Below are positions 23,119 to 43,594 of a stretch of DNA of 64,000 nt, one piece after another (positions within the stretch are counted from its first letter, which is position 1; every line of letters starts with the position of its first letter). Below the pieces are notes generated by a model, which saw only the letters and a list, made by a program, of their open reading frames with translations, had not been told where the DNA came from and made no database searches. A program made the position numbers and the translations under genes. Origin of the DNA: Candidatus Woesearchaeota archaeon (GTDB lineage Archaea > Nanobdellota > Nanobdellia > Woesearchaeales > ARS49); assembly GCA_038884975.1 (NCBI GenBank), contig JAWAAW010000001.1, positions 18,476-82,475 on the forward strand, given 5' to 3'.

Positions 23119-23233
23119 TGGGAGCGGTGAGATTTGAACTCACGACCCCACGGTAACAGAGGACCGCAAAGCCCGCTTCAGCCGTCTAAGCCAACCTTTT
23201 GGGCTGAGTGCTCTCCCGCTGAGCTACGCTCCC
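23119..23233 (-). tRNA. tRNA gene with ~43 nt of extra sequence between D and T arms (intron-containing); isotype unresolved, best guess Phe(GAA)
   Basis: Canonical acceptor GGGAGCG/CGCUCCC with discriminator A, D arm GCUC-AGCGGGA-GAGC and T arm GUGAG-UUCAAAU-CUCAC. The internal 66 nt contain a perfect arm AGCCC...CUGAAGC-GGGCU plus a second hairpin GCGGU-CCUCUGUU-ACCGU. Confidence 0.7.
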
Positions 23234-31699: not shown

Positions 31700-33511
31700 C
31701 TACTGTGGTTGTTCCTTCTTCGGGGCTGACTTTGCAAGGTATTTAAGGAATAACTTGTTCTTCATGCCATAATAAACCACAAGGACGAGCAAAATGCTGA
31801 CTGCGGCAAATAATGCAAGAAGCACAAGACCTGCCCAAATTTCTGCAAAGGACGCATTGAACACTATTGTCCTCCTGAGCAGGTTAATGCCGATCACCAA
31901 GGGGTTATACTCCGCAATTTGCATAACGACCGCAGGCATGCTTTCAATCGGTATTATTATATCAGAGATGAACAAAAAGATGCTTCCAAGAGCCATCGCT
32001 GCAAGCATAGCGGTCTCCTCGGAATTGAACATATAGCCGATAATCATCCCAAGACAAGTATAAAGCACAATCATCAGTGCAAGCACAAGAGCAGCGTATG
32101 CAAATGCACTGAATATCTGCGTGAAGAATATGCCTGCAATTGCAAGAATAATCACCAACTGAACGACAAGCAAAAACGCAGTAGTCACAAAGATAGAGCT
32201 TATGAAAACAACATCACCTGTTGGAGTCATGAAATTCCTGAAGTAAGCCGGCGAATTGCGCTCAAACAAAATCAAGGTTGGCGCAAGAAGGAGTGCACTA
32301 AAAAGCATTACGAGTGCAATGAGTGTTGGAAAGAGGTAGTTCAAGTAGCTTCTTTCTGCAACAACAGGCACGATTGTGGTCTGAACCGGCTGGACTATTG
32401 CCTGCGGATCAGTAACAGGTATTGCGCCAATCACCTTCTCAATTTCGTTCAAGGACTTCTGAATTGTAAGGATGTTGAGCAATGCCTGGTCAAGAAGTTT
32501 TGTAATTGTGTTAAGTTCATCAAGCGTGAAACCCTTAGCATTCTCAGCAAGGTCAATCTGTGATTTTGTCTGGGTAATCCTGCCAGCAAGATGGTCTATC
32601 AAACTGCTTAGACGGGAATATTCCTGATCAACAACTTCGCTGGTTGTTTGCAGTCGTTCCTCTATTTGCCCAATGTCATCAAGGCTTGCCTGCAATGATG
32701 CTGCAAGACTGTTTGAGACTTGCGAACCTGCAGAGCTCTTCTTGACAAGGTCATCAACAACATTGATGAAGTGTTTTGCCTCGGCAAGCGAACTCCTACC
32801 AAGATTGAGCGAATTATCAACCCAGTGCTTGACTATTGTCTTTGCACTAGTAAGGTTTGAAATGCCGAACTCGCCAGGATCAAGGCTTAGCTCAATTTCC
32901 AAAAGCTCTGCCTGAATGTTGCCAACGCGTTGCCCAATCTCGTCATTCTGTGTAGTCAAGGCAACAAGATTCTGCTTCCTGTCCTTTACTGCCTTCCTTG
33001 TAAAGTCTACAGCCTGCACAAGAACGGAGGTAAGGTTCCTGCTAAGCTCTGTCGCACGCGCAGAAATGCTTGTCGTCATCACATTAAGTATTGTCCAAAC
33101 AAGGTTTATCTGCGAATAATCAACAGCAAACCGAATTTCGTTGGAACCGTTCTTCCCTATAGAAAAGTCAGGCGCGAACATAATGCACGTATGAATCTCG
33201 CCACGCCTTATTCCCTGCGTGCAGGTCTCTTCTGTCGGATACCTCGTTATCTTAAACTGCTTTTCAGCAAGCTTGTCAATGAATGAATTTGAAAGATCGT
33301 TGTAAGACTGCGAGTAAGTCCCTATTCTCACCGCATAAAGATTTGTGTTGTCAAACGCGAGCCCCGCAAGAAATATTATGAGCAAAGGACCAAGAATAAC
33401 CACTAGCGCGGAGGCCCTTGCTCTCAAAAGGAGCTTGAGATTTTTCTGTACCAAAACAAGCAAGTTCTCTATCCCTCTTTTGGTCCTCTCAGTGGAGTGT
33501 GTGGGTGTCAT
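31700..33511 (-). CDS. ABC-2-type transporter permease with large extracytoplasmic coiled-coil insert
   Basis: One N-terminal TM, a ~330-aa soluble helical region, then about five C-terminal TMs. 23-nt overlap with the ATPase gene. Confidence 0.65.
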   Translation of the reverse strand: MTPTHSTERTKRGIENLLVLVQKNLKLLLRARASALVVILGPLLIIFLAGLAFDNTNLYAVRIGTYSQSYNDLSNSFIDKLAEKQFKITRYPTEETCTQGIRRGEIHTCIMFAPDFSIGKNGSNEIRFAVDYSQINLVWTILNVMTTSISARATELSRNLTSVLVQAVDFTRKAVKDRKQNLVALTTQNDEIGQRVGNIQAELLEIELSLDPGEFGISNLTSAKTIVKHWVDNSLNLGRSSLAEAKHFINVVDDLVKKSSAGSQVSNSLAASLQASLDDIGQIEERLQTTSEVVDQEYSRLSSLIDHLAGRITQTKSQIDLAENAKGFTLDELNTITKLLDQALLNILTIQKSLNEIEKVIGAIPVTDPQAIVQPVQTTIVPVVAERSYLNYLFPTLIALVMLFSALLLAPTLILFERNSPAYFRNFMTPTGDVVFISSIFVTTAFLLVVQLVIILAIAGIFFTQIFSAFAYAALVLALMIVLYTCLGMIIGYMFNSEETAMLAAMALGSIFLFISDIIIPIESMPAVVMQIAEYNPLVIGINLLRRTIVFNASFAEIWAGLVLLALFAAVSILLVLVVYYGMKNKLFLKYLAKSAPKKEQPQ

Positions 33512-34610
33512 CTTTCACGAGCGATGCAAATACCTCTGCCATTGAAGGCCTGTCAACCCGCAGGTACGTGACAGAAATCTTGCTTTTAGCAAGGAAGGCA
33601 AGCAATTGCTTCAACGCCATACGCGGTTGAGAGGTCTGTGCAACAAAACAGCCATCCTTCTCTGCTGTTCTCGAGTAAATTTTACGGTTCCTGCTGCAGA
33701 ACGACTTTATCTTTTGATAATCATTTTTATCAGTCCTGAGGAAAATCTCGTAGTGCTTTGAATAAATGTCTCGCAATTGCGTTGTGGTTCCAACTTCAGT
33801 AATTTTATGGTTACGCAAAATCGCAATCCTGTTGCAATATTGCTCGAGTTCTGAAACAACGTGCGAGGCAACAATCACTGTGGTGCCCTGCCTGTTAATC
33901 TGCACCAAAAGCGCCCATATCTGGTCACGGATTATTGGGTCGAGGTCAGCTGTCGGCTCATCAAGTATGAGTATCGAAGGGTTGTGCACAATGGCGCAAG
34001 CAATATCAAGGCGCTTCTGCATCCCTCCGGAAAGGTTCTGGGCAAGCGTGTGCTGCGCCGATTCAAGACCTACAAGCTTCAAGAGGCCGTCACATTTTGA
34101 GATGCGCTCTGCTGGTGGGATATTGTAAAGTGCTGCAAAATGCTCAATATTCTCGCGTACAGTCAGTTTTCCATAAAAAGAAGGCACCTGTGCTGCAAAG
34201 CCGAACATCCTTTTTGCAGCATCCTTTGCATTAATCACTGAAACCTCTGTCTTGTCAGGAAGCTGCAGCAAGACCTCACCCTCATCCGGTTTTATGAAAC
34301 CAACAATTGTGTTAAGGAGTGTTGTCTTTCCAACCCCACTGAGCCCGATAATCCCAAAAAGTTCTCCTGGCGGAATGTCAAGGTCAACATGATCAAGAAC
34401 AACATTGTCCCCAAAGCGCTTCGTGACCCCTTTCAGCCTCACAAGAGCAGGGCCCTTGGGCAAAACAACCTCCTGCGCCTCGCAAAGATATTCGTCAACA
34501 ATCTCCTTGGGCCAGCCTGCGCTGACGAGGAGCTTTTCAAGGTCCTTTCGCTGAGCCCCTCTTGCAATTGCCTGCATTATGTGCTCCCGCAGGGCTAACG
34601 CCGTTGCCAT
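33489..34610 (-). CDS. ABC transporter ATP-binding protein with ~55-aa N-terminal helical extension
   Basis: Walker A GLSGVGKTT, signature LSGGMQKR and Walker B ILILDEPT. Confidence 0.85.
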   Translation of the reverse strand: MATALALREHIMQAIARGAQRKDLEKLLVSAGWPKEIVDEYLCEAQEVVLPKGPALVRLKGVTKRFGDNVVLDHVDLDIPPGELFGIIGLSGVGKTTLLNTIVGFIKPDEGEVLLQLPDKTEVSVINAKDAAKRMFGFAAQVPSFYGKLTVRENIEHFAALYNIPPAERISKCDGLLKLVGLESAQHTLAQNLSGGMQKRLDIACAIVHNPSILILDEPTADLDPIIRDQIWALLVQINRQGTTVIVASHVVSELEQYCNRIAILRNHKITEVGTTTQLRDIYSKHYEIFLRTDKNDYQKIKSFCSRNRKIYSRTAEKDGCFVAQTSQPRMALKQLLAFLAKSKISVTYLRVDRPSMAEVFASLVKDDTHTLH

Positions 34611-34729: not shown

Positions 34730-35185
34730 ATGAATTGCGAAATGTGCGGAAAGGACGCAGAACTTTTTAACGCAGTGATTGAAGGAATCCAGCTACGCGT
34801 CTGTGCCCATTGTAGCAAATTCGGAAATGTGATTAAAAAAGTTGTTCCAAAAACGACAACCAAACCTGCAAAGGTCAAACAAGAACCAGTCGCTGTAGAA
34901 CAAGTAGTGAGCGATTATGCGCAAAGGATAAAAAATGCAAGGGAAAAACGCAATCTCACCCAGAAGGATTTTGCAAAGCTTGTGGCAGTCAAAGAATCGC
35001 TTATTCACAAGATAGAAACAGGGCATTTTGAGCCGCCAATAGAGCTGGCGCGCAAAATGGAAAAAATACTAAGAATTACACTCGTCGAAGTGCGCGAAGA
35101 AAATGCAGTTATGCCGCAAGAAAAAGGAGAAAAATATGTAGGAATGACAATAGGAGACATAATAAAAATAAAACAAAAATCTTAA
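34730..35185 (+). CDS. mbf1: Archaeal multiprotein bridging factor 1 (Zn-ribbon + XRE HTH)
   Basis: CEMCG...CAHC zinc ribbon followed by RNLTQKDFAKLVAVKESLIHKIETG (HTH). Confidence 0.8.
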   Translation: MNCEMCGKDAELFNAVIEGIQLRVCAHCSKFGNVIKKVVPKTTTKPAKVKQEPVAVEQVVSDYAQRIKNAREKRNLTQKDFAKLVAVKESLIHKIETGHFEPPIELARKMEKILRITLVEVREENAVMPQEKGEKYVGMTIGDIIKIKQKS

Positions 35186-36603
35186 CGAGCGTATATCGAA
35201 TACCAGCACCTGCCTGACTGGTCAAAGAAAACCTGTCTGAAATGCTCATTCAGGAAAAAACGCATTTTCTCAATCTCAACAGGACATTGCTTATCATCAG
35301 GCGAGCAAACAAGACCGCCTCCACAGTTGTCGAGCAGGACAGCCCCAACCTTTTCTGAATTCTGCGCAAGATACTTATTGAAATCAGTGGCAGTTTCCAT
35401 CCCATAAATCGGATAATATATCTTGCTGATTTTCTGATTGGTGAAAGCAGCAACGACCGGGTTGCTGGTCCAGATTTCACCATCAATCTTTCTATTCTCA
35501 AGCCAGCGGAAAAATCTTTCTGAAGCAAGGTCAGGAATTCTTGGCTCGTTGTTGTGATAAAAAAGGATTGCGTGCAAGGCAGAAACAACAAAAACAACAA
35601 CAATTGAAATTGCCCAGACATACTTCGCGATTTGTTTTTTATTCTCAAGCCAGCTTACACAAGCTTCAATGCCAAATCCTGCAAACAAGGCAACAAAAGG
35701 GAGAAAAATCACCAGATAGCGATAATCCCTGCAATGAAGCTGCACAAAATAAGCAAGAGGAAGAAGAAGCGAAAGCAAAGGCAACAAATACTGCTTTTTC
35801 CAGCCCTTAACAGCAGATATTATTCCAACAACGGCAAATGCATTAAGCACATTATCAAAGAGAATCCACCCAAAATACTGATACCACGGCTTGTAGCGCA
35901 AAATATTACAACCAACAACCATCAAAATACTCTTTTGCGCCTCAAGAATGGGCAAAAGCATTGAGCCGTACATCATTTGATTGAACATAAGAAAAGGAAT
36001 TGAGGGAATTGCAAAACCAATCAATAAATATGCCATTTGCTTCCAGCGCTTTTGAATAACAAGACAAATGCCAAGAACAAGAAGGAAGACCCCTGCAGGA
36101 AACTTCATAAGGAAAGCAAGACCTGCAAAAATCCCTGCCAAAAAATTTTTGCCTGAAATAAATGCAAATACTGCGGCAAGGACAAGTGTCACTTCAGGTA
36201 TTTCGGTGTACTCGTGAAAACCCAGATAAAAGACAATCGAGCTGAAAGCCCATAAAATGCTGGAGATGACTGCAGCACGCTTGGAAAATAGTTTTCGGGA
36301 AATCAAATAAACAAGAAGTATTGAAATTATTGAAAGCAAAAACTCAATAATCCTTGCAAACCACACAATGTCAAGCTTCAACCACCAACCAAAACCAATA
36401 ATCAAAGGCCAAAGAACAGGCCTTATCGGCTCCCACAATCCTGAAGTTCCACCCGACCACAAGTATTTAGCCATTCCAAAATAAACACCCGAATCCCACC
36501 AAACCTCATGCCAGTCAAACAAATAAATCAACCTGGCAAGAGCGGCAACAATAATTACAGAACAAACCAGCCAATGCTTTCGAAAGCAATGGATCACATT
36601 CAT
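35182..36603 (-). CDS. GT-C fold glycosyltransferase (PMT_2/ArnT-like)
   Basis: More than 10 TM segments. The N-terminal loop HEVWWDSGVYFGMAKYL is typical of the dolichyl-phosphate-sugar transferase family. ATGA overlap with the upstream gene. Confidence 0.6.
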   Translation of the reverse strand: MNVIHCFRKHWLVCSVIIVAALARLIYLFDWHEVWWDSGVYFGMAKYLWSGGTSGLWEPIRPVLWPLIIGFGWWLKLDIVWFARIIEFLLSIISILLVYLISRKLFSKRAAVISSILWAFSSIVFYLGFHEYTEIPEVTLVLAAVFAFISGKNFLAGIFAGLAFLMKFPAGVFLLVLGICLVIQKRWKQMAYLLIGFAIPSIPFLMFNQMMYGSMLLPILEAQKSILMVVGCNILRYKPWYQYFGWILFDNVLNAFAVVGIISAVKGWKKQYLLPLLSLLLPLAYFVQLHCRDYRYLVIFLPFVALFAGFGIEACVSWLENKKQIAKYVWAISIVVVFVVSALHAILFYHNNEPRIPDLASERFFRWLENRKIDGEIWTSNPVVAAFTNQKISKIYYPIYGMETATDFNKYLAQNSEKVGAVLLDNCGGGLVCSPDDKQCPVEIEKMRFFLNEHFRQVFFDQSGRCWYSIYAR

Positions 36604-38690
36604 TTTACAACCCTCGGATTAGGATCATCAAAGCTTGTCTGCTTAGGAAACTCCTTAAGCAACAAATAACCATAAGGATATGAAACTGAGTGGAAAAGAA
36701 TAGCGCGATGCTGTCCTGACTCCACAAGCCATTTCCTAAGAATGTCATAATCGTTTGAGTTGAAAACCCTTGCAGCAATCACTTTTGCCCCAACCGACTT
36801 TGCCTTTTGAACAACCTTTTCCATCTGATTAAAGCCATCAATTTGGACATAATAAATCTTAAGCGGCACTGACTCCTGCAATGTACTGAAATAATTTGCA
36901 GGAGTCTGGTAATACCAGACCGCATAAGGCCAGTCTGTTGAGTTCATCACAACAATTGGCTCTATCGTCTTGATTTCAACAGGCTGACCACCAATAATAA
37001 TCTTGCTGCCAACACGTTTAATCGGCGGGCTTCCAACAATGCTCAAATTATGCCCTAACGCAAGATTAAGATACTTATCAGTCAAGCAGATCACAGGAAC
37101 TCTTTTCTTTGCCAGATATTCAGCTGCCTTTATTTTTCCAGGATGATCACAGCAGCCCATAACCGCAGATACATTCCTCCTCAGCGCTTGCTCAACAAGC
37201 ATGTTAACGCCATGGGTGTCCATAATTACTGTAAGGTCGTCCCTCAAGAATCTCGTTGTGGGGTATAACAGCTTGTCAAGCGGAACCTCAAACCTGAAAA
37301 TGCCGTTCTCGTCAGAAGCATACCACTTGTCACGCAACCTGGCAACAAGAGTCCCGTAACCAACAACCGGCTCAATACCTGCCTTTGCCAGCTCATCCAT
37401 CCTGCCACCTTCGTGCCAACCAATGTCCTCGCGCAATTCAGAAGAATTGTAAGTCAGGCGCTCTGAGAAAGTCGTGAGAACCTGACTGCCAAACAAGTCA
37501 TCCTTTACCTGCAAGCCTAACCAATCCCTTTTCATGCGGTCTGACTGAGTGAGCACGGCGTCCCCTTGCTGCAGGACGATAGACGTTTCCCCGATAATGA
37601 TGCGCGAAGCGTTCTGCAAGAAAAGTGCAGAATCAACATCGCCAGTTTCGAACTTCAGGTTTGTCTTTTGATACGTTGCAAGGGACTCGTCAAGCTTTGC
37701 GCGTGCGGAATTGTTCAGCAACACCCATCGCTTTGCGGCTTCAAGCAAAAATGCCCTTTTGTTCCTGCCGCAATCGATTGATGCAATCGTCTCGTAAATT
37801 AATGCCTGCTTTTCCATATTGTTTGTTTCCTGCAATGCGCGGTCATACCACTGCAGGCTTTCACAAATCATTGAATCGTTCTTGGTTATCCTTCCAAGCA
37901 TCAGCATCAGGTCTGCGCGGGCATATGCAGAAAGGCTTCCTGAAAGCATTGTGGAAATGTTTCCGACAAACTCGCTGACATTTATACCCACAGAATTCAG
38001 GACGTAAGTAAAGTCATATTGCTGGCCGTAAGGGTCTGCACGCCTTAGCAAATTCATTATTGTTGCATTAAGTTCGCCTGTGTAAACAAGCCCTTCCTTT
38101 TTCTGGCTGTCAAAAATTATTGTGGGCGCCGTGGTGACATTGTATTTTGTCACCAAAAGCTTGACAAGGGGCTCGTCCTTGTAATCCTTGTCGATCGAGA
38201 GAACAACAACCTGCCGCTCATATTCCTTGCTCAGGTCTGCAAGAATAAATCCCTGTCTCTCGCTAAGGTCATCATCAATCTTGTAAAAGAAGATAATCGG
38301 AATGTAAGGCCTGTTGCATTCCTTGTTAAGTTGCTCAATCAAGGCGAGAAATTTAAGCTCAAGGAGGAAGTATTTGCGCTTCAAGTAATCATAGTCATTT
38401 TTCTTGAAAAAGCTGAAAGCGCTGTAACTGCCAAGGTCTGCGCCGACAGTCTTGATTTCCTCCTTTAGCTGGGCAATGCGGGCATTCATTATCTCACACC
38501 TGTTCCCGCCAAAGGAATCTGTGAACTCCTGCTCAGCCAAGTATGCAGCGGTATTAATCTCATGCTTAACCATTACATCAGCAATCGTGCTTATGCGCAC
38601 AAAATCAAGCCCGTAATTCAGCAGGATACCAAACGAAAAAATAAGTATTGTCAAAAAGAGACTGCTGATAATGATGCGCGTGCGCACCAT
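36600..38690 (-). CDS. Membrane-anchored 696-aa protein; N-terminal ~200 aa paralogous to 38693..39325, C-terminal ~480 aa unknown
   Basis: N-terminal TM. Shared blocks YLAEQEF...C, NDYDYLKRKYF and NVTTAPTIIF. Confidence 0.6.
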   Translation of the reverse strand: MVRTRIIISSLFLTILIFSFGILLNYGLDFVRISTIADVMVKHEINTAAYLAEQEFTDSFGGNRCEIMNARIAQLKEEIKTVGADLGSYSAFSFFKKNDYDYLKRKYFLLELKFLALIEQLNKECNRPYIPIIFFYKIDDDLSERQGFILADLSKEYERQVVVLSIDKDYKDEPLVKLLVTKYNVTTAPTIIFDSQKKEGLVYTGELNATIMNLLRRADPYGQQYDFTYVLNSVGINVSEFVGNISTMLSGSLSAYARADLMLMLGRITKNDSMICESLQWYDRALQETNNMEKQALIYETIASIDCGRNKRAFLLEAAKRWVLLNNSARAKLDESLATYQKTNLKFETGDVDSALFLQNASRIIIGETSIVLQQGDAVLTQSDRMKRDWLGLQVKDDLFGSQVLTTFSERLTYNSSELREDIGWHEGGRMDELAKAGIEPVVGYGTLVARLRDKWYASDENGIFRFEVPLDKLLYPTTRFLRDDLTVIMDTHGVNMLVEQALRRNVSAVMGCCDHPGKIKAAEYLAKKRVPVICLTDKYLNLALGHNLSIVGSPPIKRVGSKIIIGGQPVEIKTIEPIVVMNSTDWPYAVWYYQTPANYFSTLQESVPLKIYYVQIDGFNQMEKVVQKAKSVGAKVIAARVFNSNDYDILRKWLVESGQHRAILFHSVSYPYGYLLLKEFPKQTSFDDPNPRVVK

Positions 38691-38692
38691 CT

Positions 38693-39325
38693 TTATTCCT
38701 CCCGGACCAGTGCCACAAGCTCTTCATATGGTGTCAGGCCCTTGCGCACAATGTCAAAGTTCACAACAATGGAAGGTGTGCTTGTGATTTCATAATACTC
38801 CTCAAGGAAACGCAATTCTGGAGAATAATTGTATTCTATTGCAAAAACATTCGCATCAAAACCACTAACTATCTTATCAAGTATTGCACCCTGCTCAAGC
38901 GACTTTGAGTCATTCTGGCTGTAATAAAAAAGTATTATAGAAACATCAACTTCACAGTCCTGACTCAATCGGTGGTATAGCGTGTAAGTCTTTATCTGCA
39001 TCAAATGGAATTTTCGCTTAAGGAAATCATAATTTGCATTACCAAGATCCTCTTTAGCAGTTTCTGAGCCAAGAAGCTTGCCAAGCCGCCAAAGTTCACC
39101 TGACAGCGCAGAAAGCCTTAGCTTTGCAAGGTCACAATTATTTTCCATATCTGCAAACAATTCCTGCTCAATAAGGTATGATTCAGTGGCCAGCTCGCTC
39201 TGCTTGATGAACCTGTTGACCTCAGAGAGCTCAGGATTGCTTACACTTCTGCCCACAATTATCCCAATCGCAAATACCAGAATCAGAAGAAGAATCATCG
39301 AAATGTATGTTTGGCGCCTTACCAT
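38693..39325 (-). CDS. Membrane-anchored thioredoxin-fold-like protein (no CxxC)
   Basis: N-terminal TM. Blocks YLIEQELF...C, NYDFLKRKFH and EITSTPSIVVN (resembling the cis-Pro loop of thioredoxin folds). Confidence 0.5.
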   Translation of the reverse strand: MVRRQTYISMILLLILVFAIGIIVGRSVSNPELSEVNRFIKQSELATESYLIEQELFADMENNCDLAKLRLSALSGELWRLGKLLGSETAKEDLGNANYDFLKRKFHLMQIKTYTLYHRLSQDCEVDVSIILFYYSQNDSKSLEQGAILDKIVSGFDANVFAIEYNYSPELRFLEEYYEITSTPSIVVNFDIVRKGLTPYEELVALVREE

Positions 39326-40563
39326 TTTTTCCTTGTTCCCAGCGCCTCGTGAACTATTGCGGAAATCCAGTGCATCGTGGTAATGTAAGGTGCAATAAAC
39401 ATGTAGATTGCAATGTAGTGCGCGTGCCTGAAAAACCGCTCATTAAATTCCTTATGCGCCAAATACATCAAGTAAATCCCCAGCAGTATGCCAAGCAGTA
39501 TTGGCAAAGTTACTTGCACGTTTTGTGCAAGAAAAAACTTTTCAAAACCAGGAAAATCAAGTACGTGGTTGAAAAAATAGCCTTTAATAGTAAGGCTCCT
39601 GTAGAGGGTTTCATAGAGGTCGCCAAGTGTGCCGTATGCGGCAAGAGAGACTGTCAGAAGCAAAAGGAATATGCTGAGTATATTAAGCGGCATCTGAAAC
39701 AAACCGTAAATTCCATGCGCCTTTTTGAAAAGGAGTCTGCGGTAATTCCAGTGGTTGACTGCAAAGCCACGATACCACCTTATGCGCTGGCGCCAGAGTT
39801 CGTTCCAGCTCCGAGGTGCCTTTGTGTACATTATTGCGCGAGGGTCCATCCGCACTTCGTATCCATGTGAGCGCAGGCGCAAGGCAATCTCAAGGTCCTC
39901 TGTTAGGCCTCCATCACGAAAACCCCCAACTTTCTTCAACACCTTTGTGTTAAACATGGACAGCGCTCCACCCGGCGCGATTGCAAGAGTTCCAAGTGAA
40001 GACATCATCCTCCTGACAAAGTTGCTGATTATGTATTCAATGCGCTGAAGCTTCTCATAAATGTTTTTTGGCTCGTCAACTTTGACCTGACCGATAACAG
40101 CACCAATCTTTGGGTCTGAAAAATGCTTTACTAAGTGGTTCAATGCTTCTGGATGAACTCTTGTATCGCAGTCAAGACAGGTAAACAATTCCCCTACTGC
40201 ATGTGCAAGGGCAGTATTGACTGCGGCTGCCTTGCCCTTGTTGCATTCATGATGCAAAACCTGAATTGGCAGTGCTGGAAACTCCCTTTGCAAACGCTTG
40301 GCTTCTTTAAGAGTATCGTCTGTCGAGCAGTCATCAACGAGAATTATTTGCAGAAGTGTTTTTGGATAATTAAGATTGTTCAGCGACTTTATCGTCTTTG
40401 AAATTACTTTTTCCCTGTTGAAGCAAGGAATTGCAAAAGTGACTGTTGACAACTGTTTTGGCAAAGCCCTTCTTGGGCTGGGTTCAAAGACTATCATGTT
40501 AAGCCATATCAGCGATATCCAAAGGCTGATAAATGAAACTCCCCATAATATGTATTGTATCAT
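39319..40563 (-). CDS. Processive family-2 glycosyltransferase (NodC/IcaA/PgaC/cellulose-synthase-like)
   Basis: DDCSTDDT, DCD, TEDLE and QRIRWYRG (QxxRW), with flanking TM helices. Confidence 0.85.
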   Translation of the reverse strand: MIQYILWGVSFISLWISLIWLNMIVFEPSPRRALPKQLSTVTFAIPCFNREKVISKTIKSLNNLNYPKTLLQIILVDDCSTDDTLKEAKRLQREFPALPIQVLHHECNKGKAAAVNTALAHAVGELFTCLDCDTRVHPEALNHLVKHFSDPKIGAVIGQVKVDEPKNIYEKLQRIEYIISNFVRRMMSSLGTLAIAPGGALSMFNTKVLKKVGGFRDGGLTEDLEIALRLRSHGYEVRMDPRAIMYTKAPRSWNELWRQRIRWYRGFAVNHWNYRRLLFKKAHGIYGLFQMPLNILSIFLLLLTVSLAAYGTLGDLYETLYRSLTIKGYFFNHVLDFPGFEKFFLAQNVQVTLPILLGILLGIYLMYLAHKEFNERFFRHAHYIAIYMFIAPYITTMHWISAIVHEALGTRKKW

Positions 40564-42014
40564 TCTGGCTTATTGGGTGGAATGACTGCCCAAATATCGA
40601 CGAAAGCTGAGTGATAAATGTTTTTAAAGGTTTCGTTGTTTCTCAGAAGGAAAAGAAGGTCCTGCTCAGGCAAATCCCACACAAGCCCATCTTTCATGTC
40701 CCCGGTGATGACAAGAGCGCCTATCTTATGCTTGTAAAGCAAAGCCCTTGCATTTGTTATATCCTGCGAGTGCCATATTGCTTGAGCAACAGCCCAACGA
40801 GTTGCAATACCAGGAGTCAGGGAAGGCCAGCCGTCAAGATAAACCTGCCTTCCAGACCAGTACTCCAACCAGAAACCGTTCTTAGGATGCGACAAAAGAA
40901 CTGTTTTTTCAGGTAATAGGGACCTTACTGCAACGGCAGCGTCCTTTATTTCCTTTGTTGGCGGTCCTCTTGCCAGGAAAATACCTTGCGTAAGTGTTGA
41001 GAAAAGCAAACCGCACACCAGCACAAACACAGTAAGAACCCTTATGTCATCAAACACCCATTTCCTGCCTGCAAGGAATGCAAGCGCATTGCCTGCCAGG
41101 AAAGCCGTTAGCGGATGGGCAATCGGAAGGGCAGAAGGCATTATTAATGAAACTACGAGTGTGATTCCAACCGCAATCATTGCTGCAAAATATTTTTTCT
41201 TGAAATGCCAAAGCAGGACAAAGCCTATAAGGGCAAGCAGCCACGCAAAAAGGCTCATCCCACCCACCCCTCCAAAGTCGCTTATTGCCTGAATTACAAA
41301 AACCTGCTTTCCAAAGGAAGGCTGCTCGTACTGAAGGAACTGCGGAAGTGCAACCGTCACAAGCACGATAAACGCAGCAATGCTGGAGGCAACAATTGAT
41401 GAAGGAATCCTTCTGCTCAATGTACGCAAAAGCAACGGAAGCACAAACGCAGCCAAGGCAGGAATTATTCCGAATGAAGCAAGCAATGCAGCAACAAAAA
41501 CTGCAATAATAACGAGCAGAATGCCTCTACTTGCAGAACGCTTTCCTTCAGGTAGAGAAAGTAATAGTAAAAACAGGACGAACAGGAAAAGCTCAAGCGA
41601 CCTTGGAATTGCCTGAGTGAATGTAGTGACAAAAAAAGGTGAAATAACAAAAACAACAATTATTGAAAGTACAATTACGGGAGACAATTGCCATTTTCTA
41701 AGCACAGCATAAAAGCACAAAACAGACAATACCCCAAGAACCAATGGCAAGAGAATTGCCGCTGCCTCAATTCCGACTAGTTTTGCAAAACCTGCGAGCA
41801 GAATGTCGAAAGCATTAGGAACATACTTTCTTTCAGGCATTAAAGGGTCATACTTCGGAATTCCTGACTGCGCAATTATTCCAGCCATCCTTGCGTGACC
41901 ATAACTTTCACTACCAAGCATTAAGGGCATTCCATTAAGCGCCCTAATCAAGACAGGCAAAAGCAACAGCAATACACCAAATACAATTACTGCCTTAACA
42001 ATCAGTTTTTTCAT
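40560..42014 (-). CDS. GT-C polytopic protein, AglB/STT3-like paralog with degenerate catalytic motifs
   Basis: About 12 TM segments plus a C-terminal soluble domain. The N-terminal loop GSESYGHARMAG and C-terminal LPEKTVLLSHPKNGFWLEYWSGRQVYLDG occupy the positions of the DxD-type and WWDYG motifs. Confidence 0.45.
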   Translation of the reverse strand: MKKLIVKAVIVFGVLLLLLPVLIRALNGMPLMLGSESYGHARMAGIIAQSGIPKYDPLMPERKYVPNAFDILLAGFAKLVGIEAAAILLPLVLGVLSVLCFYAVLRKWQLSPVIVLSIIVVFVISPFFVTTFTQAIPRSLELFLFVLFLLLLSLPEGKRSASRGILLVIIAVFVAALLASFGIIPALAAFVLPLLLRTLSRRIPSSIVASSIAAFIVLVTVALPQFLQYEQPSFGKQVFVIQAISDFGGVGGMSLFAWLLALIGFVLLWHFKKKYFAAMIAVGITLVVSLIMPSALPIAHPLTAFLAGNALAFLAGRKWVFDDIRVLTVFVLVCGLLFSTLTQGIFLARGPPTKEIKDAAVAVRSLLPEKTVLLSHPKNGFWLEYWSGRQVYLDGWPSLTPGIATRWAVAQAIWHSQDITNARALLYKHKIGALVITGDMKDGLVWDLPEQDLLFLLRNNETFKNIYHSAFVDIWAVIPPNKPE

Positions 42015-43516
42015 TCAACAACCTCCACGCGGCAGTATGGCAGCTTCACGAAAACCTCGTGCCCTTTTTCTGAAAACGTCTGTGAGAAGCATTTGCTTTT
42101 TTCTATGTATCTCAGAGTGGTTATCCTATACTTATTCTTTGTTTCCTGCGAAAGAAGGATAACATTTGCATTATAGCGCTCCATAATTTCTGCAGCTTCA
42201 ACACCAAGCACTGTGCCAAAAACCCTATCAATATCGTGCAACCTCTGCTTAGCATCGTGCTGGAGCAGGAAATGGCTGTCGACGACATTTTTCCTCTGGG
42301 CGAGCTCTGCAATCTTGTGCCCCTCGTCAACATAAGCAACAACTGTTGAATCAGCGGGCGTCTGGGTACGCACCCATTCATAGGCCCGGATTTCGGCTGG
42401 CGAAGGCGCTTTCGCCTGCATTGCCCAGCCAGAACTAAGAGATGGCACGAACCCTGTGAGGACAAATGCAGCTACAAGCAGGGTAACAATTAATGGAACA
42501 ACGCGGTGAAATCTTGTTGTTGGAACATACGTAAGAAAGAAATCTACCCATCTGCTGAATAGGACAATCAGGAACATTCCAAGCATAATCATTCCCTGTT
42601 GGATAGGAATGAGCCTGAACCAGAGCAAGACTGCTGCCGCAAGCGTAAAGGATATCAGGAAATACGTCATCTTCTGCTTCCGCCTGAAAAGATAACGATA
42701 GACGACAAAAACACCATAAAGCACAGGAAGTATTCCAATCTGGTAAATTGCTGACAAGATTGTCACCTCAGCAAACTGCGATGACAACAATTGAGAAGGA
42801 ATGTTCTGCCAAATGACAGCAGGACCATGGGCAAGAATAAAGTTCTTGTAAAGCAAAAACTGACTCCAAAGGACAAAAAAAAGAGAAAACAACATTATCT
42901 CAAGCTCTGCATGCTCCATCTTAACACGCTCAACAAGAACAAGGAACAAATAAACTGCCAAACCAAAGGCAAAAAGCAGCGCAATCGGGTGCGTAAATGA
43001 AAGAACAATGAGTCCTGCAATATAAAGGTAGCGCCACTTGGGCTCCTGAACCCTCATCAGGGAATAAATAATGAAAAAAAGCAAAAATGCCGCAAGCGTG
43101 AGTGGCGAGAGCGTGTTGATAGTGTAAGCAAACCAGACAGGAACAAAGGCTGAAAAGACCGCAGTAAACAATGCAACACCACGATTTTTTGTAATCCTGA
43201 GCACAATCCCAAATATTAGTGGAATAAGCAATACTGCCAGCAGGTTAGGAATAACTTTTGCAGCAATCCCAACAGGCATTAACAATGAGAATGCAGCAAC
43301 AACATAATGAAAAACAGGACTGAAGAAGTAAGTCCTTCCACCCCAGCTCAATTGGTCTTCAAATAACGGCAGGCCTGTACGTCTTATGTGTTCTACTTGC
43401 CTCAGATGGAAGTAAGCATCATCACTGCTGAAGCCTTCAGCACTGAAAGCAATCCATAATCTCAGGGCAAAAACAGCAACACATACCAATGCAAGCAGCC
43501 ACGCTGTCCCCTTCAT
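42011..43516 (-). CDS. GT-C polytopic protein, AglB/STT3-like paralog with degenerate WWDYG
   Basis: Start set at the ATG 43516 (MKGTAW; the track start is a TTG). Loop-1 SSDDAYFHLRQVEHI resembles the AglB first-loop motif. C-terminal AYEWVRTQTPADSTVVAYVDEGHKIAELAQRKNVVDS parallels the WWDYG region. Confidence 0.5.
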   Translation of the reverse strand: MKGTAWLLALVCVAVFALRLWIAFSAEGFSSDDAYFHLRQVEHIRRTGLPLFEDQLSWGGRTYFFSPVFHYVVAAFSLLMPVGIAAKVIPNLLAVLLIPLIFGIVLRITKNRGVALFTAVFSAFVPVWFAYTINTLSPLTLAAFLLFFIIYSLMRVQEPKWRYLYIAGLIVLSFTHPIALLFAFGLAVYLFLVLVERVKMEHAELEIMLFSLFFVLWSQFLLYKNFILAHGPAVIWQNIPSQLLSSQFAEVTILSAIYQIGILPVLYGVFVVYRYLFRRKQKMTYFLISFTLAAAVLLWFRLIPIQQGMIMLGMFLIVLFSRWVDFFLTYVPTTRFHRVVPLIVTLLVAAFVLTGFVPSLSSGWAMQAKAPSPAEIRAYEWVRTQTPADSTVVAYVDEGHKIAELAQRKNVVDSHFLLQHDAKQRLHDIDRVFGTVLGVEAAEIMERYNANVILLSQETKNKYRITTLRYIEKSKCFSQTFSEKGHEVFVKLPYCRVEVVE

Positions 43517-43594
43517 GATTATTGCAAGCAAAACCCCTTTTATAAAGTCTTCGCAGCAATATTTTTATAGCCAGTGCAACATTTTGTTTAAGCG

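What the first reader, a model, noticed from the sequence alone, without database searches (positions are those of the whole stretch)
35182..43516. 8.3-kb six-gene overlapping operon combining three GT-C enzymes, a processive GT2 and two thioredoxin-fold-like paralogs
In minus-strand order the genes are: AglB/STT3-like 1 (43516..42011), AglB/STT3-like 2 (42014..40560), QxxRW GT2 (40563..39319), a 210-aa anchored Trx-like protein (39325..38693), a 696-aa anchored protein with the same N-terminal domain (38690..36600), and a PMT/ArnT-like GT-C (36603..35182). Junctions are ATGA (x3), a 7-nt overlap and a 2-nt gap, so the products are almost certainly made together. A processive synthase of the NodC/IcaA/cellulose-synthase type together with three lipid-linked-sugar transferases points to synthesis and attachment of a surface polysaccharide or glycoprotein glycan. 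No nucleotide-sugar biosynthesis or flippase gene is present in the window.
Basis: partly seen in the sequence, partly recalled or inferred. Interest (0 to 1): 0.6.

Follow-up and report, generated by a model that had tools for sequence, protein, structure and literature searches.

The report
DPANN STT3-like envelope glycosylation operon
A tightly packed six-gene operon in a tiny symbiotic (DPANN/Woesearchaeota) archaeon encodes a sugar-polymer-type synthase, two stripped-down copies of the enzyme that normally attaches sugars to proteins, a third lipid-sugar transferase and two redox-dead thioredoxin-like proteins; the set is conserved across the phylum and undescribed, and it probably builds part of the cell surface these organisms use to contact hosts.

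Summary
Six minus-strand ORFs lie at the stated coordinates, with three ATGA overlaps, one 7-nt overlap and one 2-nt gap.

The gene assignments hold up:
- **g1 and g2** are full-length paralogs (hhalign E 1e-39). The g1 model matches only STT3/AglB/PglB in its top 19 PDB fold hits (E 5e-12). Both have lost the WWDYG sequon clamp, and g1 also the DXD loop. They miss Pfam STT3. The real AglB lies on another contig.
- **g3** is a membrane GT2 with invariant D, DxD, TED and QRxRW motifs. It is closest to PgaC/IcaA but far below that model's cut-off. Processivity is unproven.
- **g4 and the N-terminal part of g5** are anchored Trx folds with no CxxC. Eleven of 51 orthologues still carry CPxC-type motifs.
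- **g6** passes Pfam PMT_2.
- **The g5 C-terminal domain** has no known family. It is secreted, and elsewhere it is fused to GT-C or S-layer domains.

The order g1-g2-g3-Trx is conserved in at least 42 further genomes from 14 families.

Best reading (about 0.5): a second envelope-glycan assembly line, independent of AglB, whose acceptor is not an N-X-S/T sequon. The function is inferred, not shown. I rate it a new variant of a known kind.

The parts
43539..43546 (-). TATA-box-like element (palindromic TTTATAAA) in the 78-nt divergent intergenic region shared with radB. It lies 23 nt upstream of the g1 ATG, which implies a leaderless or near-leaderless operon transcript.
   Evidence: This is the only strong TATA-like match in the cluster. 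One weaker match, TTTAAAAA at 40621-40628, lies 58 nt upstream of g3.
42011..43516 (-). g1: STT3-fold GT-C protein, 501 aa, about 13 TM helices plus a C-terminal mixed alpha/beta domain of about 130 aa. The WWDYG position reads YVDEG, and the DXD loop is absent.
   Evidence: AF2 pLDDT 90.5. Foldseek top 19 hits are STT3/AglB/PglB, E 4.7e-12, TMq 0.75. Family profile vs PDB STT3 E 3.8e-10. Profile vs the genome's own AglB i-E 2.8e-8. Family invariants include R19, Y35, D54, E206, G399, D413, C476, C495. Pfam PMT_2 scores only E 4e-4, and there is no Pfam STT3 hit.
40560..42014 (-). g2: full-length divergent paralog of g1, 484 aa. The WWDYG position reads HPKNG. Acidic residues are kept at three loop positions (E36, D56, D246 in g2 numbering) as D or E in all 13 orthologues.
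   Evidence: hhalign of the g2 family against the g1 family: probability 100, E 1e-39 over 436 columns. Column inspection. No Pfam hit for the window protein.
39319..40563 (-). g3: integral-membrane GT2 of the synthase type, 414 aa. One N-terminal TM and about three C-terminal TMs. Motifs D82, D131-x-D133, T221-E222-D223 and Q259-R-x-R-W263 are present.
   Evidence: Pfam Glyco_tranf_2_3 E 1.6e-34. NCBIfam PgaC_IcaA E 2.3e-50, but 171.7 bits against a 422.3 cut-off. PDB 6yv7 E 5e-22 and BcsA E 1e-12. All four motifs are invariant in 10 orthologues of 30-78% identity. TM count is by eye from the sequence and alignment, not from a predictor.
38693..39325 (-). g4: N-terminally anchored protein (N-in, C-out), 210 aa. 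A helical stalk is followed by a thioredoxin-fold domain. There is no CxxC. The structural Cys pair C64/C124 and the cis-Pro P184 are conserved.
   Evidence: BLASTP g4 vs g5 N-terminus E 9e-27, 31% identity. Alignment of 51 sequences of this family (49 orthologues plus g4 and the g5 N-domain). No Pfam family.
38045..38690 (-). g5 N-terminal module (residues 1-215): a paralog of g4 with TM anchor, helical stalk and Trx fold. It is followed by a helical repeat at residues 229-338.
   Evidence: AF2 pLDDT 87.8. Foldseek: YbbN/CnoX E 1.2e-5, and dozens of thioredoxins with TMt 0.65-0.81. TraF (a Trx-like family) hits 36 of 48 family members.
36600..38044 (-). g5 C-terminal domain (g5C, residues 216-696; conserved core 360-695): an extracytoplasmic alpha/beta domain with no Pfam or PDB relative. 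Strictly conserved polar motifs are QxxRxxRDW, (H/M)EG, DTHG, C-x-D...K, D538 and LFHS.
   Evidence: Only 177 clusters match among 1.84 billion representatives. Fusions to PMT_2 GT-C, S_layer_C, TPR and a YwiC-like membrane domain. Invariants. Signal peptides, lipoboxes and Tat motifs in stand-alone forms. No PDB or Pfam hit.
35182..36603 (-). g6: PMT/ArnT-type GT-C protein, 473 aa. It has an invariant first-loop W36-D37 (VWWDSGVY) and a C-terminal extracytoplasmic domain with four cysteines.
   Evidence: Pfam PMT_2 E 7.8e-13 (49.4 bits against a 26.1 cut-off), DUF2079 and GT22. Family invariants. hhalign vs the g1 family: probability 95, E 2e-8.

Best explanation
The six genes form one translationally coupled operon. 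I propose it encodes a membrane-bound, largely extracytoplasmic glycan-assembly line that is separate from the genome's canonical AglB N-glycosylation island on contig C3.

Shown:
- The folds and motifs of all six proteins.
- The paralogy of g1 with g2, and of g4 with the g5 N-terminal domain.
- Conservation of the gene order across the phylum.

Inferred mechanism:
1. g3 is a D/DxD/TED/QxxRW synthase-type GT2. It uses a nucleotide sugar at the cytoplasmic face to build a glycan on a membrane-embedded acceptor, either a polyprenyl-phosphate carrier or a growing chain. Its constant neighbour is the single-pass Trx-fold protein (g4; duplicated and fused as g5). I propose this protein is its partner subunit on the outer face, in the manner of PgaC-PgaD or BcsA-BcsB.
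2. g1 and g2 descend from STT3. They keep the first-loop acidic residues but have lost the WWD sequon clamp, and g1 also the DXD loop. Possibly as a heterodimer, and together with the PMT/ArnT-like g6, they use lipid-phosphate-linked sugars outside the membrane. They transfer or extend the glycan on an acceptor that is not an Asn-X-Ser/Thr sequon: another protein side chain, a glycan or a lipid.
3. The redox-dead Trx modules act as acceptor-holding scaffolds, analogous to Ost3/Ost6 or CnoX.
4. The new g5C domain handles the product or acceptor at the envelope. In other archaea it is fused to GT-C or S-layer domains.
For: **Operon.** The overlaps are 4, 4 and 7 nt, then a 2-nt gap, then 4 nt. 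There is a TATA-like element upstream of g1 only, and SD-like motifs before g2, g5 and g6. Synteny is conserved.

**g1 and g2.** The g1 model is STT3-like by fold search and the g1 family by profile. The two are full-length paralogs. D54, E206 and D413 are invariant in 39 g1 homologues. Three acidic positions are kept in all 13 g2 orthologues. That pattern suggests enzymes under selection rather than decayed copies.

**Separate from N-glycosylation.** The real AglB, with an intact WWDFG, is on C3. It sits in an island with at least seven GT2 hits, four epimerases and a Wzx-like flippase.

**g3.** The catalytic motifs are invariant. Full-length relatives are synthase-type enzymes: PgaC/IcaA, BcsA, NodC and PcManGT. 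A g3 orthologue is present in all 9 genomes tested. In G190 and G238 it sits directly beside the Trx-like gene.

**Trx-like gene.** It is found in 326 of 401 genomes of the phylum. The Trx fold is confirmed. A CxxC motif survives in 11 of 51 sequences of the family.

**g5C.** It is fused to a PMT_2 GT-C in at least three protein clusters and in L038. It is fused to S_layer_C in four clusters. Stand-alone forms carry signal peptides, lipoboxes or Tat motifs.

**g6.** It passes Pfam PMT_2.
Against: - There is no biochemical, transcript or glycan evidence. Donor, acceptor and product are all unknown.
- g1 and g2 lack two of the three acidic or aromatic motif sets that define OST catalysis, so they could be inactive.
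- g3 appears to have only about four TM helices. NodC and PcManGT, which have similarly minimal membrane parts as I recall, are not exporting polymerases, so 'synthase with export' is uncertain.
- g3 lies outside the cluster in four of ten closer genomes.
- The genome has no detectable sugar nucleotidyltransferase (PF00483) and no PF00953 initiating transferase. The supply of donors is therefore unexplained.
- The roles proposed for the Trx modules and g5C rest on fusions and analogy only.
Confidence: 0.5

Rival explanations
1. A free or loosely attached exopolysaccharide, or a wall-like polymer. g3 (with the single-TM Trx-like protein) would be a PgaC/IcaA-like processive synthase-exporter. 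The three GT-C proteins would be extracytoplasmic polymerising or branching enzymes acting on the polymer, as Emb and Aft enzymes act on mycobacterial arabinan. They would not be transferases to protein.
For: The best curated model for g3 is PgaC_IcaA, E 2e-50. The GT2 plus small single-pass partner arrangement recalls PgaC-PgaD and BcsA-BcsB (established knowledge). Foldseek also lists AftA, AftD, AftB and EmbB among the GT-C hits for g1. A conserved ABC-2 transporter pair lies next door.
Against: The PgaC score is far below the equivalog cut-off, 171.7 against 422.3 bits. g3 has only about four TM helices. No deacetylase, porin-like or chain-length component is recognisable. STT3 ranks far above Emb and Aft for g1 (E 5e-12 against 2e-5 or weaker). 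The ABC-2 pair is not adjacent in distant genomes (L040, L041).
Confidence: 0.2
2. g1 and g2 are pseudo-enzymes. They would be STT3-derived scaffolds that have lost catalysis and serve as structural or channel subunits for the GT2 and g6 machinery, or as membrane anchors for the extracytoplasmic Trx and g5C modules.
For: The WWDYG clamp is lost in both, and the DXD loop in g1. No acidic residue is strictly invariant in the 13-member g2 alignment. g2 evolves fast, at 23-32% identity outside the genus.
Against: D54, E206 and D413 are invariant across 39 g1 homologues down to 27% identity. The first-loop acidic positions are D or E in all g2 orthologues. Metal-independent GT-C enzymes such as DPY19, ALG6 and PMT work without DXD or WWD (established knowledge). 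Both paralogs are retained in genomes of about 0.8 Mb.
Confidence: 0.15
3. The system is centred on extracytoplasmic protein folding or redox rather than on glycans. The anchored Trx proteins, which are CxxC-active in some lineages, would be the core function. The GT genes would be clients or merely neighbours.
For: The Trx-like gene is the most widespread component, in 326 of 401 genomes. A CxxC motif is present in 11 of 51 sequences of the family. The extracytoplasmic domains of g1, g5 and g6 carry conserved cysteines. YbbN/CnoX is the top fold hit for g5.
Against: Most orthologues, including both copies here, lack any redox cysteine at the active site. The gene is almost always embedded between GT genes in fixed order. 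g5C is fused to GT-C proteins.
Confidence: 0.07
4. The six genes are adjacent by accident of genome compaction, and the products do not work together.
For: DPANN genomes are very compact, and overlapping genes are common. The flanks are housekeeping genes: radB, an MBF1-like HTH gene, cysS and valS.
Against: The order is conserved across at least 14 families and several orders, while the flanks change. A Rosetta-stone fusion joins a g6-like GT-C to g5C. All six products are membrane proteins from only three fold classes.
Confidence: 0.03

Closest known systems
STT3 / AglB / PglB oligosaccharyltransferases (CAZy GT66)
   Same: g1, and by paralogy g2, share the about 13-TM GT-C fold plus a C-terminal mixed alpha/beta domain. 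They keep the first-loop motif (D-x-YF-x-x-R ... D-x-LSYGGR, compare STT3 DPYFNYR ... WYPLGR, recalled). The segment after the last TM aligns residue by residue with the WWDYG region of the genome's own AglB.
   Different: The proteins are about 500 aa instead of 700-1100 aa. WWD is replaced (g1 YVDEG, g2 HPKNG). The DXD loop is deleted in g1. There is no Pfam STT3 match. They are encoded as a tandem pair beside a GT2 and a Trx-like gene, while a canonical AglB exists elsewhere. The acceptor is therefore unlikely to be an N-X-S/T sequon.
DPY19 C-mannosyltransferase and other metal-independent GT-C enzymes (PMT, ArnT, ALG family)
   Same: These are structural neighbours of g1 (DPY19 E 5e-8, ArnT E 9e-6). 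They work with polyprenyl-phosphate monosaccharide donors and need no DXD or WWD motif (established knowledge). g6 passes Pfam PMT_2.
   Different: There is no detectable sequence family membership for g1 or g2. DPY19 ranks below every STT3/AglB/PglB hit.
Membrane-integrated GT2 synthases: PgaC/IcaA, NodC, BcsA, hyaluronan synthase, and the minimal PcManGT (PDB 6yv7)
   Same: The GT-A domain carries D, DxD, TED and QxxRW, followed by an amphipathic helix and C-terminal TM helices. g3 is paired with a small single-pass membrane partner, as in PgaC-PgaD or BcsA-BcsB.
   Different: g3 scores far below every equivalog cut-off. It has only about four TM helices. The partner is a Trx-fold protein, for which I know no precedent. 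The product and processivity are unknown.
Ost3/Ost6 (Tusc3/MagT1) thioredoxin subunits of eukaryotic OST; E. coli YbbN/CnoX; F-plasmid TraF
   Same: A Trx-fold module is placed on the non-cytoplasmic side of the membrane next to an STT3-type enzyme (Ost3/6 analogy). A Trx domain without CxxC is followed by a helical repeat (YbbN/CnoX is the top fold hit). The sequence-level affinity to TraF is to a CxxC-less Trx-like family.
   Different: The topology differs: a single N-terminal TM plus a long helical stalk, against the four C-terminal TMs of Ost3/6. No sequence family membership is detectable. The gene is linked most tightly to the GT2 rather than to the STT3-like genes.
Three-component extracytoplasmic glycosylation systems (GtrA/B/C, CsbB-YfhO, ArnC-ArnT)
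   Same: A GT2 is clustered with GT-C enzymes that modify a surface acceptor outside the membrane.
   Different: In those systems the GT2 is a polyprenyl-phosphate monosaccharide synthase without QxxRW, and a GtrA-type flippase is present. Here the GT2 is synthase-type and no such flippase lies in the cluster.

Membership tests
STT3/AglB/PglB (GT66) - g1, g2 | GT-C fold with about 13 TM helices plus a C-terminal extracytoplasmic mixed alpha/beta domain, closest to solved OST catalytic subunits | tested here: met
   The g1 AF2 model (pLDDT 90.5) has Foldseek top 19 hits that are all STT3/AglB/PglB, E 4.7e-12 to 3.6e-8, TMq up to 0.77. g2 is linked to g1 by hhalign, E 1e-39.
STT3/AglB/PglB (GT66) - g1, g2 | Match to Pfam STT3 (PF02516) above the curated cut-off | tested here: not met
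   hmmscan gives no STT3 hit for g1 or g2. A whole-genome PF02516 search finds only C3:59307-60455. Of 39 g1 relatives, 2 hit AglB_core-like weakly at E 5e-4.
STT3/AglB/PglB (GT66) - g1, g2 | WWDYG motif (clamp for the +2 Ser/Thr of the sequon) | tested here: not met
   Aligned to SWWDFGH of the genome's own AglB, g1 reads AYVDEGH (family consensus x-x-[DE]-[ED]-G) and g2 reads SHPKNGF. Only the Gly is invariant.
STT3/AglB/PglB (GT66) - g1, g2 | DXD / D-x-x-x-x-D metal-binding motif in the second external loop | tested here: not met
   The HADTD loop of the genome's own AglB aligns to a gap in the g1 profile, and there is no acidic residue in g1 residues 118-142. This rests on an HMM alignment, not a structural superposition.
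STT3/AglB/PglB (GT66) - g1, g2 | Catalytic acidic residue(s) in the first external loop | tested here: met
   D54 is invariant in g1, and an acidic residue precedes A/S-Y-F in nearly all of 39 sequences. In g2, positions E36 and D56 are D or E in all 13 orthologues.
STT3/AglB/PglB (GT66) - g1, g2 | Transfer of a lipid-linked oligosaccharide to Asn of N-X-S/T | not testable with these tools
   This needs an in vitro or in vivo assay.
Processive membrane GT2 synthases (PgaC/IcaA, NodC, BcsA, HAS) - g3 | GT-A domain with D, DxD, TED and Q(Q/R)xRW motifs | tested here: met
   D82, D131-x-D133, T221-E222-D223 and Q259-R260-x-R262-W263 are invariant in 10 orthologues. Pfam Glyco_tranf_2_3 E 1.6e-34.
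Processive membrane GT2 synthases (PgaC/IcaA, NodC, BcsA, HAS) - g3 | Equivalog-level match to a characterised synthase | tested here: not met
   The best match is TIGR03937 PgaC_IcaA at 171.7 bits against a 422.3 cut-off. NodC scores 66 against 550, and CelA 68 against 699.
Processive membrane GT2 synthases (PgaC/IcaA, NodC, BcsA, HAS) - g3 | A TM channel sufficient for polymer export, and processive elongation | tested here: inconclusive
   I count about one N-terminal and three C-terminal hydrophobic helices, by eye from the sequence. That resembles NodC and PcManGT, as I recall them. No structure was predicted for g3. Processivity is not testable here.
Thioredoxin fold - g4, g5 N-domain | Thioredoxin-type alpha/beta fold | tested here: met
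   Foldseek of the g5 model matches about 45 thioredoxins at E 2e-4 to 1e-3, TMt 0.60-0.81, rmsd 1.9-4.8 over about 90-108 columns. YbbN is the top hit. g4 is linked to g5 by BLASTP, E 9e-27.
Thioredoxin fold - g4, g5 N-domain | CxxC active site | tested here: not met
   At the aligned active-site position g4 reads NDS--KS and g5 reads DDD--LS. Eleven of the 51 sequences of the family keep C-P/A/E/F-x-C at exactly this position.
Thioredoxin fold - g4, g5 N-domain | Conserved cis-proline loop | tested here: met
   P184 (T-x-P-[ST]) is invariant in the 11-sequence alignment and nearly so in the 51-sequence one.
Thioredoxin fold - g4, g5 N-domain | Match to a Pfam Trx-clan family above the cut-off | tested here: not met
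   Hits are sub-threshold only: TraF 19.3 bits against 23, Thioredoxin_2 17.7 bits against 27. g4 has none.
PMT/ArnT-type GT-C (Pfam PMT_2) - g6 | Pfam PMT_2 above the gathering score, plus a first-loop Asp | tested here: met
   PMT_2 scores 49.4 bits against a 26.1 cut-off, E 7.8e-13. W36 and D37 are invariant in 14 orthologues.
Single operon | Same strand, overlapping or abutting ORFs, one promoter, conserved order | tested here: met
Single operon | One continuous transcript | not testable with these tools

The most novel reading that the evidence does not exclude
The cluster may encode an AglB-independent, OST-like machine. It would consist of an STT3-derived heterodimer (g1/g2) plus a membrane-anchored thioredoxin-fold subunit, a prokaryotic counterpart of eukaryotic STT3-Ost3/6. 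This machine would attach a synthase-made glycan to non-sequon sites on envelope proteins, or tether the S-layer through the new g5C domain. If so, it would be the first candidate machinery for archaeal non-N-linked (for example O-linked) protein glycosylation or S-layer anchoring, and it would be near-universal in one DPANN phylum.
Probability: 0.15. Interest if true: 0.85.

Novelty: new variant of a known kind. Interest (0 to 1): 0.6.

Why it matters
DPANN archaea live attached to host cells, and their surface chemistry is essentially unknown. This cluster is one of the most conserved membrane-protein gene sets in the phylum. The Trx-like gene is in 326 of 401 genomes, and g1 is in 275 of 401. 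It is retained in genomes of about 0.8 Mb, which argues for an essential envelope function.

It shows a natural experiment on the oligosaccharyltransferase scaffold. The STT3 fold is kept, the sequon-reading WWD clamp is lost in both copies and the DXD loop in g1, and the gene is duplicated in tandem. That offers a way to ask what else this fold can glycosylate.

It also defines two unannotated families. One is an anchored Trx family caught in the process of losing its CxxC. The other is a strongly conserved secreted domain (g5C) that elsewhere is fused to GT-C enzymes and S-layer proteins. Enzymes for non-N-linked glycosylation and for envelope anchoring in archaea are, to my knowledge, still uncharacterised. 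These genes are concrete candidates for them.

Tried and rejected
1. Single-sequence searches of g1, g2, g5 and g6 against PDB gave nothing significant. Only family profiles and fold search resolved g1.
2. Sigma-70 promoter and intrinsic-terminator scans are not meaningful for an archaeon, and their counts were no higher than in shuffled sequence.
3. g5C as a CE4 polysaccharide deacetylase. The idea came from a C-terminal TFDD-like motif and an RDW motif. I rejected it because the motif order is wrong and there is no Pfam, PDB or fold support.
4. g5C as a metallophosphoesterase, suggested by the DxHG motif. I rejected it because there is no GNHE or GHxH motif and no fold hit.
5. g5C as a type-I periplasmic-binding or eIF2B/MtnA-like sugar-phosphate-binding Rossmann domain. 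Only sub-threshold hints exist: Foldseek TM below 0.3, and profile E about 0.7. I keep it as a lead, not a finding.
6. The neighbourhood of an S-layer-g5C fusion gene (L042) contains no glycosyltransferase genes, so it adds no pathway link.
7. Literature searches for a description of this cluster or of WWDYG-less STT3 paralogs in DPANN found nothing relevant.
9. The last word-indexed search, with g4 as query, returned only close Woesearchaeota orthologues with no names. The CxxC survey was therefore done on genome-derived orthologues.

Full report
**Context.** The window comes from an 838-kb, 17-contig genome, 99.95% complete, and spans C1:18476-82475. The organism is an archaeon. RadA and RadB, an archaeal-type S2 and a 115-nt intron-bearing tRNA flank the region. 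Relatives of its proteins are labelled Candidatus Woesearchaeota or Nanoarchaeota. GC content is about 44% with no compositional break at the cluster.

**Observation.** Six minus-strand ORFs occupy 35182-43516 exactly as described.
- The junctions, read directly, are ATGA at g1/g2, g2/g3 and g5/g6, ATGGTAA at g3/g4, and TAA-AG-ATG at g4/g5.
- The ATG at 43516 is the likely g1 start, not the upstream TTG. Twenty-six of the 27 closest full-length relatives are 500-505 aa, most exactly 501.
- A TATA-like TTTATAAA lies 23 nt upstream of that ATG, in the 78-nt region shared with divergent radB.
- g1 has no Shine-Dalgarno motif. g2, g5 and g6 have GGAGG-like motifs 11-12 nt upstream of their starts. 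This is the usual archaeal pattern of a leaderless first gene followed by coupled downstream genes.

**g1 and g2.**
- Single-sequence searches were nearly blank. g1 hit Pfam PMT_2 at E 4e-4, below the cut-off, and g2 hit nothing.
- BLASTP linked the two proteins only over 77 N-terminal residues, E 6e-4.
- Family alignments settled the question. The g2 family against the g1 family gives hhalign probability 100 and E 1e-39 over 436 columns, so they are full-length paralogs.
- The g1 family profile hits solved STT3 proteins at E 3.8e-10 and 1.7e-8, PglB at 1.3e-5, and an AglB C-terminal domain at 4e-4.
- The AF2 model of g1 (pLDDT 90.5, pTM 0.88) gives Foldseek top 19 hits that are all OST catalytic subunits. 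These are human STT3A/B, yeast Stt3, AfAglB and PglB, E 4.7e-12 to 3.6e-8, TMq up to 0.77. DPY19 (5e-8), ArnT (9e-6), AftA and ALG12 follow.
- Membership of the family in the functional sense fails. Pfam STT3 finds only one locus in the genome, on contig C3. That gene is a 1141-aa AglB with an intact WWDFG and, unusually, a C-terminal FKBP domain.
- Aligned to that AglB, g1 has AYVDEGH and g2 has SHPKNGF where AglB has SWWDFGH. The AglB HADTD (DXD) loop falls in a gap of the g1 profile.
- What is kept in g1 is D54, invariant in D-x-LSYGGR, an acidic residue before A-Y-F-H-L-R-Q, and E206, W236-Q-N, G399, R408-K-N and D413.
- g2 keeps D or E at three loop positions in all 13 orthologues.
- This pattern resembles an enzyme that has changed acceptor, and perhaps donor type, more than a decaying copy. 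Inactivity cannot be excluded.

**g3.**
- Pfam GT2 families match at E 1e-34. The best curated model is PgaC/IcaA at E 2.3e-50, but 171.7 bits against a 422.3-bit cut-off.
- The best solved relatives are the minimal cellulose-synthase-like PcManGT (6yv7, E 5e-22) and BcsA (E 1e-12).
- D82, D131-x-D133, TED221-223 and QRxRW259-263 are invariant in ten orthologues of 30-78% identity.
- QxxRW is not proof of processivity. It also occurs in ceramide glucosyltransferase, HpnI and PcManGT, all of which appear among the hits.
- I count only about four TM helices by eye. 'Synthase-type' is shown; 'processive exporter' is not.

**g4 and g5.**
- g4 and the first 215 residues of g5 are paralogs: 31% identity, E 9e-27.
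- The g5 model has pLDDT 87.8. It shows an N-terminal TM, a long helical stalk, a Trx-fold domain, a helical repeat (229-338) and a large alpha/beta C-terminal part.
- Foldseek gives E. coli YbbN/CnoX first. That protein is a CxxC-less Trx plus TPR chaperone. Dozens of thioredoxins follow, with TMt 0.60-0.81.
- I aligned 51 sequences of this family, 49 orthologues drawn from across the phylum plus g4 and the g5 N-domain. A structural Cys pair (C64/C124) is invariant, and the cis-Pro is nearly so.
- Eleven of the 51 carry a canonical CPxC-type motif at the Trx active-site position. About 27, including both window copies, have a two-residue deletion ending in Ser. Twelve have a four-residue deletion.
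- The family is thus an anchored extracytoplasmic thioredoxin that has become redox-dead in most lineages.

**g5C.**
- Residues 216-696 match no Pfam family (48 members scanned) and no PDB sequence, even with a 30-member profile.
- Only weak, low-TM fold hits to periplasmic-binding-type domains appear.
- Across 1.84 billion representative proteins, only 177 clusters match.
- The architectures are informative. They include the Trx-anchor fusion of about 700 aa and stand-alone forms of about 500 aa.
- Fusions are to PMT_2 GT-C proteins (912-927 aa), to the S_layer_C outer domain (850-1002 aa, one annotated as an S-layer protein), to TPR arrays and to a YwiC-like membrane domain.
- A minimal core of 360-400 aa also occurs, including in an Altiarchaeales genome.
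- Stand-alone forms begin with signal peptides, lipoboxes or twin-arginine motifs. The domain therefore works outside the cell.
- Residues conserved in at least 90% of 42 diverse members (several in all 42) form polar motifs: QxxRxxRDW, (H/M)EG, DTHG, C-x-D...K, D538 and LFHS. These suggest catalysis or precise ligand binding.

**g6.** It passes Pfam PMT_2 (49.4 against 26.1 bits) and also hits DUF2079 and GT22. It has an invariant first-loop W-D and is distantly related to g1 (hhalign probability 95).

**Conservation.**
- In 20 fetched loci, the order radB | g1 g2 (g3) g4 g5 g6 | hth | ABC-2 pair, cysS holds within the family. L028 is the exception, with no g1 or g2 hit.
- A core g1-g2-g3-Trx(-g6) holds in other orders of the class.
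- Where g3 is missing from the cluster, a 43-47% identical orthologue lies elsewhere. In G190 and G238 it directly abuts the Trx-like gene.
- The Trx-like gene is found in 326 of 401 sampled genomes, and g1 in 275 of 401.
- In 42 of 43 further genomes from 14 families, g1 lies 3.6-5.6 kb upstream of the Trx-like gene on the same strand.
- One genome fuses a g6-like GT-C to g5C (L038).

**Genome background.** The canonical glycosylation island is on C3, about 21-61 kb. It holds four epimerases, a Wzx-like flippase, several small GT2 genes and AglB. No PF00483 nucleotidyltransferase and no PF00953 transferase were found anywhere in the genome. Sugar activation is therefore unexplained or depends on the host.

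**Interpretation.**
- The best-supported reading (about 0.5) is a second envelope-glycoconjugate assembly line, independent of AglB.
- In it, a synthase-type GT2 works with a single-pass partner.
- Three extracytoplasmic GT-C transferases take part, two of them STT3-derived with the sequon clamp removed.
- Trx-like modules serve as scaffolds, and g5C is a new envelope-facing domain.
- Rival readings are free polysaccharide synthesis (0.2), g1 and g2 as pseudo-enzymes (0.15), a folding- or redox-centred system (0.07) and chance adjacency (0.03).
- Nothing about donor, acceptor or product is shown.

**Prior notes.** I found no description of this cluster in the searchable literature. An earlier agent of this scan reached a concordant reading on a related genome.

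Noticed in passing
G000:C3:57807-61955 (L001), outside the window: The genome's canonical AglB is a 1141-aa protein. It carries four N-terminal acidic repeats (DDELSIDFSKIKSWFTKKE-like), then the STT3 and STT3-PglB_core domains with an intact WWDFG, and a C-terminal FKBP-type prolyl isomerase domain (E 1.7e-20). I had not seen a foldase fused directly to an oligosaccharyltransferase. It parallels the Trx-like partners of the STT3-like genes.
   Followed up: partly
whole genome G000: No NTP_transferase (PF00483) and no Glycos_transf_4 (PF00953) hit was found in a 99.95%-complete genome. The same genome has an AglB, many GT2 genes, five epimerases and a flippase. Sugar activation and glycan initiation may depend on the host or on unrecognised enzymes.
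   Followed up: partly
window 31700-34610 (-): An ABC-2 transporter pair lies just downstream. The ATPase has a DrrA-like C-terminal domain, and the 603-aa permease has a large external loop. Only the convergent MBF1-like HTH gene (34730-35185) separates the pair from g6. The adjacency is conserved within the family but not in distant orders. The pair could be an exporter for the cluster's product, or it could be unrelated.
   Followed up: partly
L038:7796-10561 (G169:C20); also P0234, P0244, P0255: A Rosetta-stone fusion joins a PMT_2-type GT-C membrane domain to the g5C domain in one protein of about 920 aa.
   Followed up: yes
P0271, P0272, P0273, P0285 (L042:10001-13009 for P0271): S-layer-like proteins (Pfam S_layer_C outer domain) carry g5C as their C-terminal half. 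The P0271 neighbourhood has no glycosyltransferases. It does have an FtsX/MacB ABC system and type IV filament ATPase genes.
   Followed up: partly
L030:10895-13131 (G050:C1): One relative has an extra 506-aa GT-C gene and a small 242-aa GT2 gene inserted between g5 and g6. This suggests the cluster accepts additional glycosylation modules.
   Followed up: no
window 23119-23233 (-): A 115-nt tRNA match (Rfam, 46 bits) was not called by ARAGORN. It is probably an intron-containing archaeal tRNA.
   Followed up: no
P0315, P0335 (stand-alone g5C-core proteins): Two minimal g5C proteins start with twin-arginine (RRxFL) signals, and several others have lipobox-like L-x-x-C motifs. The domain is therefore exported by different routes in different lineages. 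Export in a folded state through Tat hints at a cofactor or tight fold.
   Followed up: no
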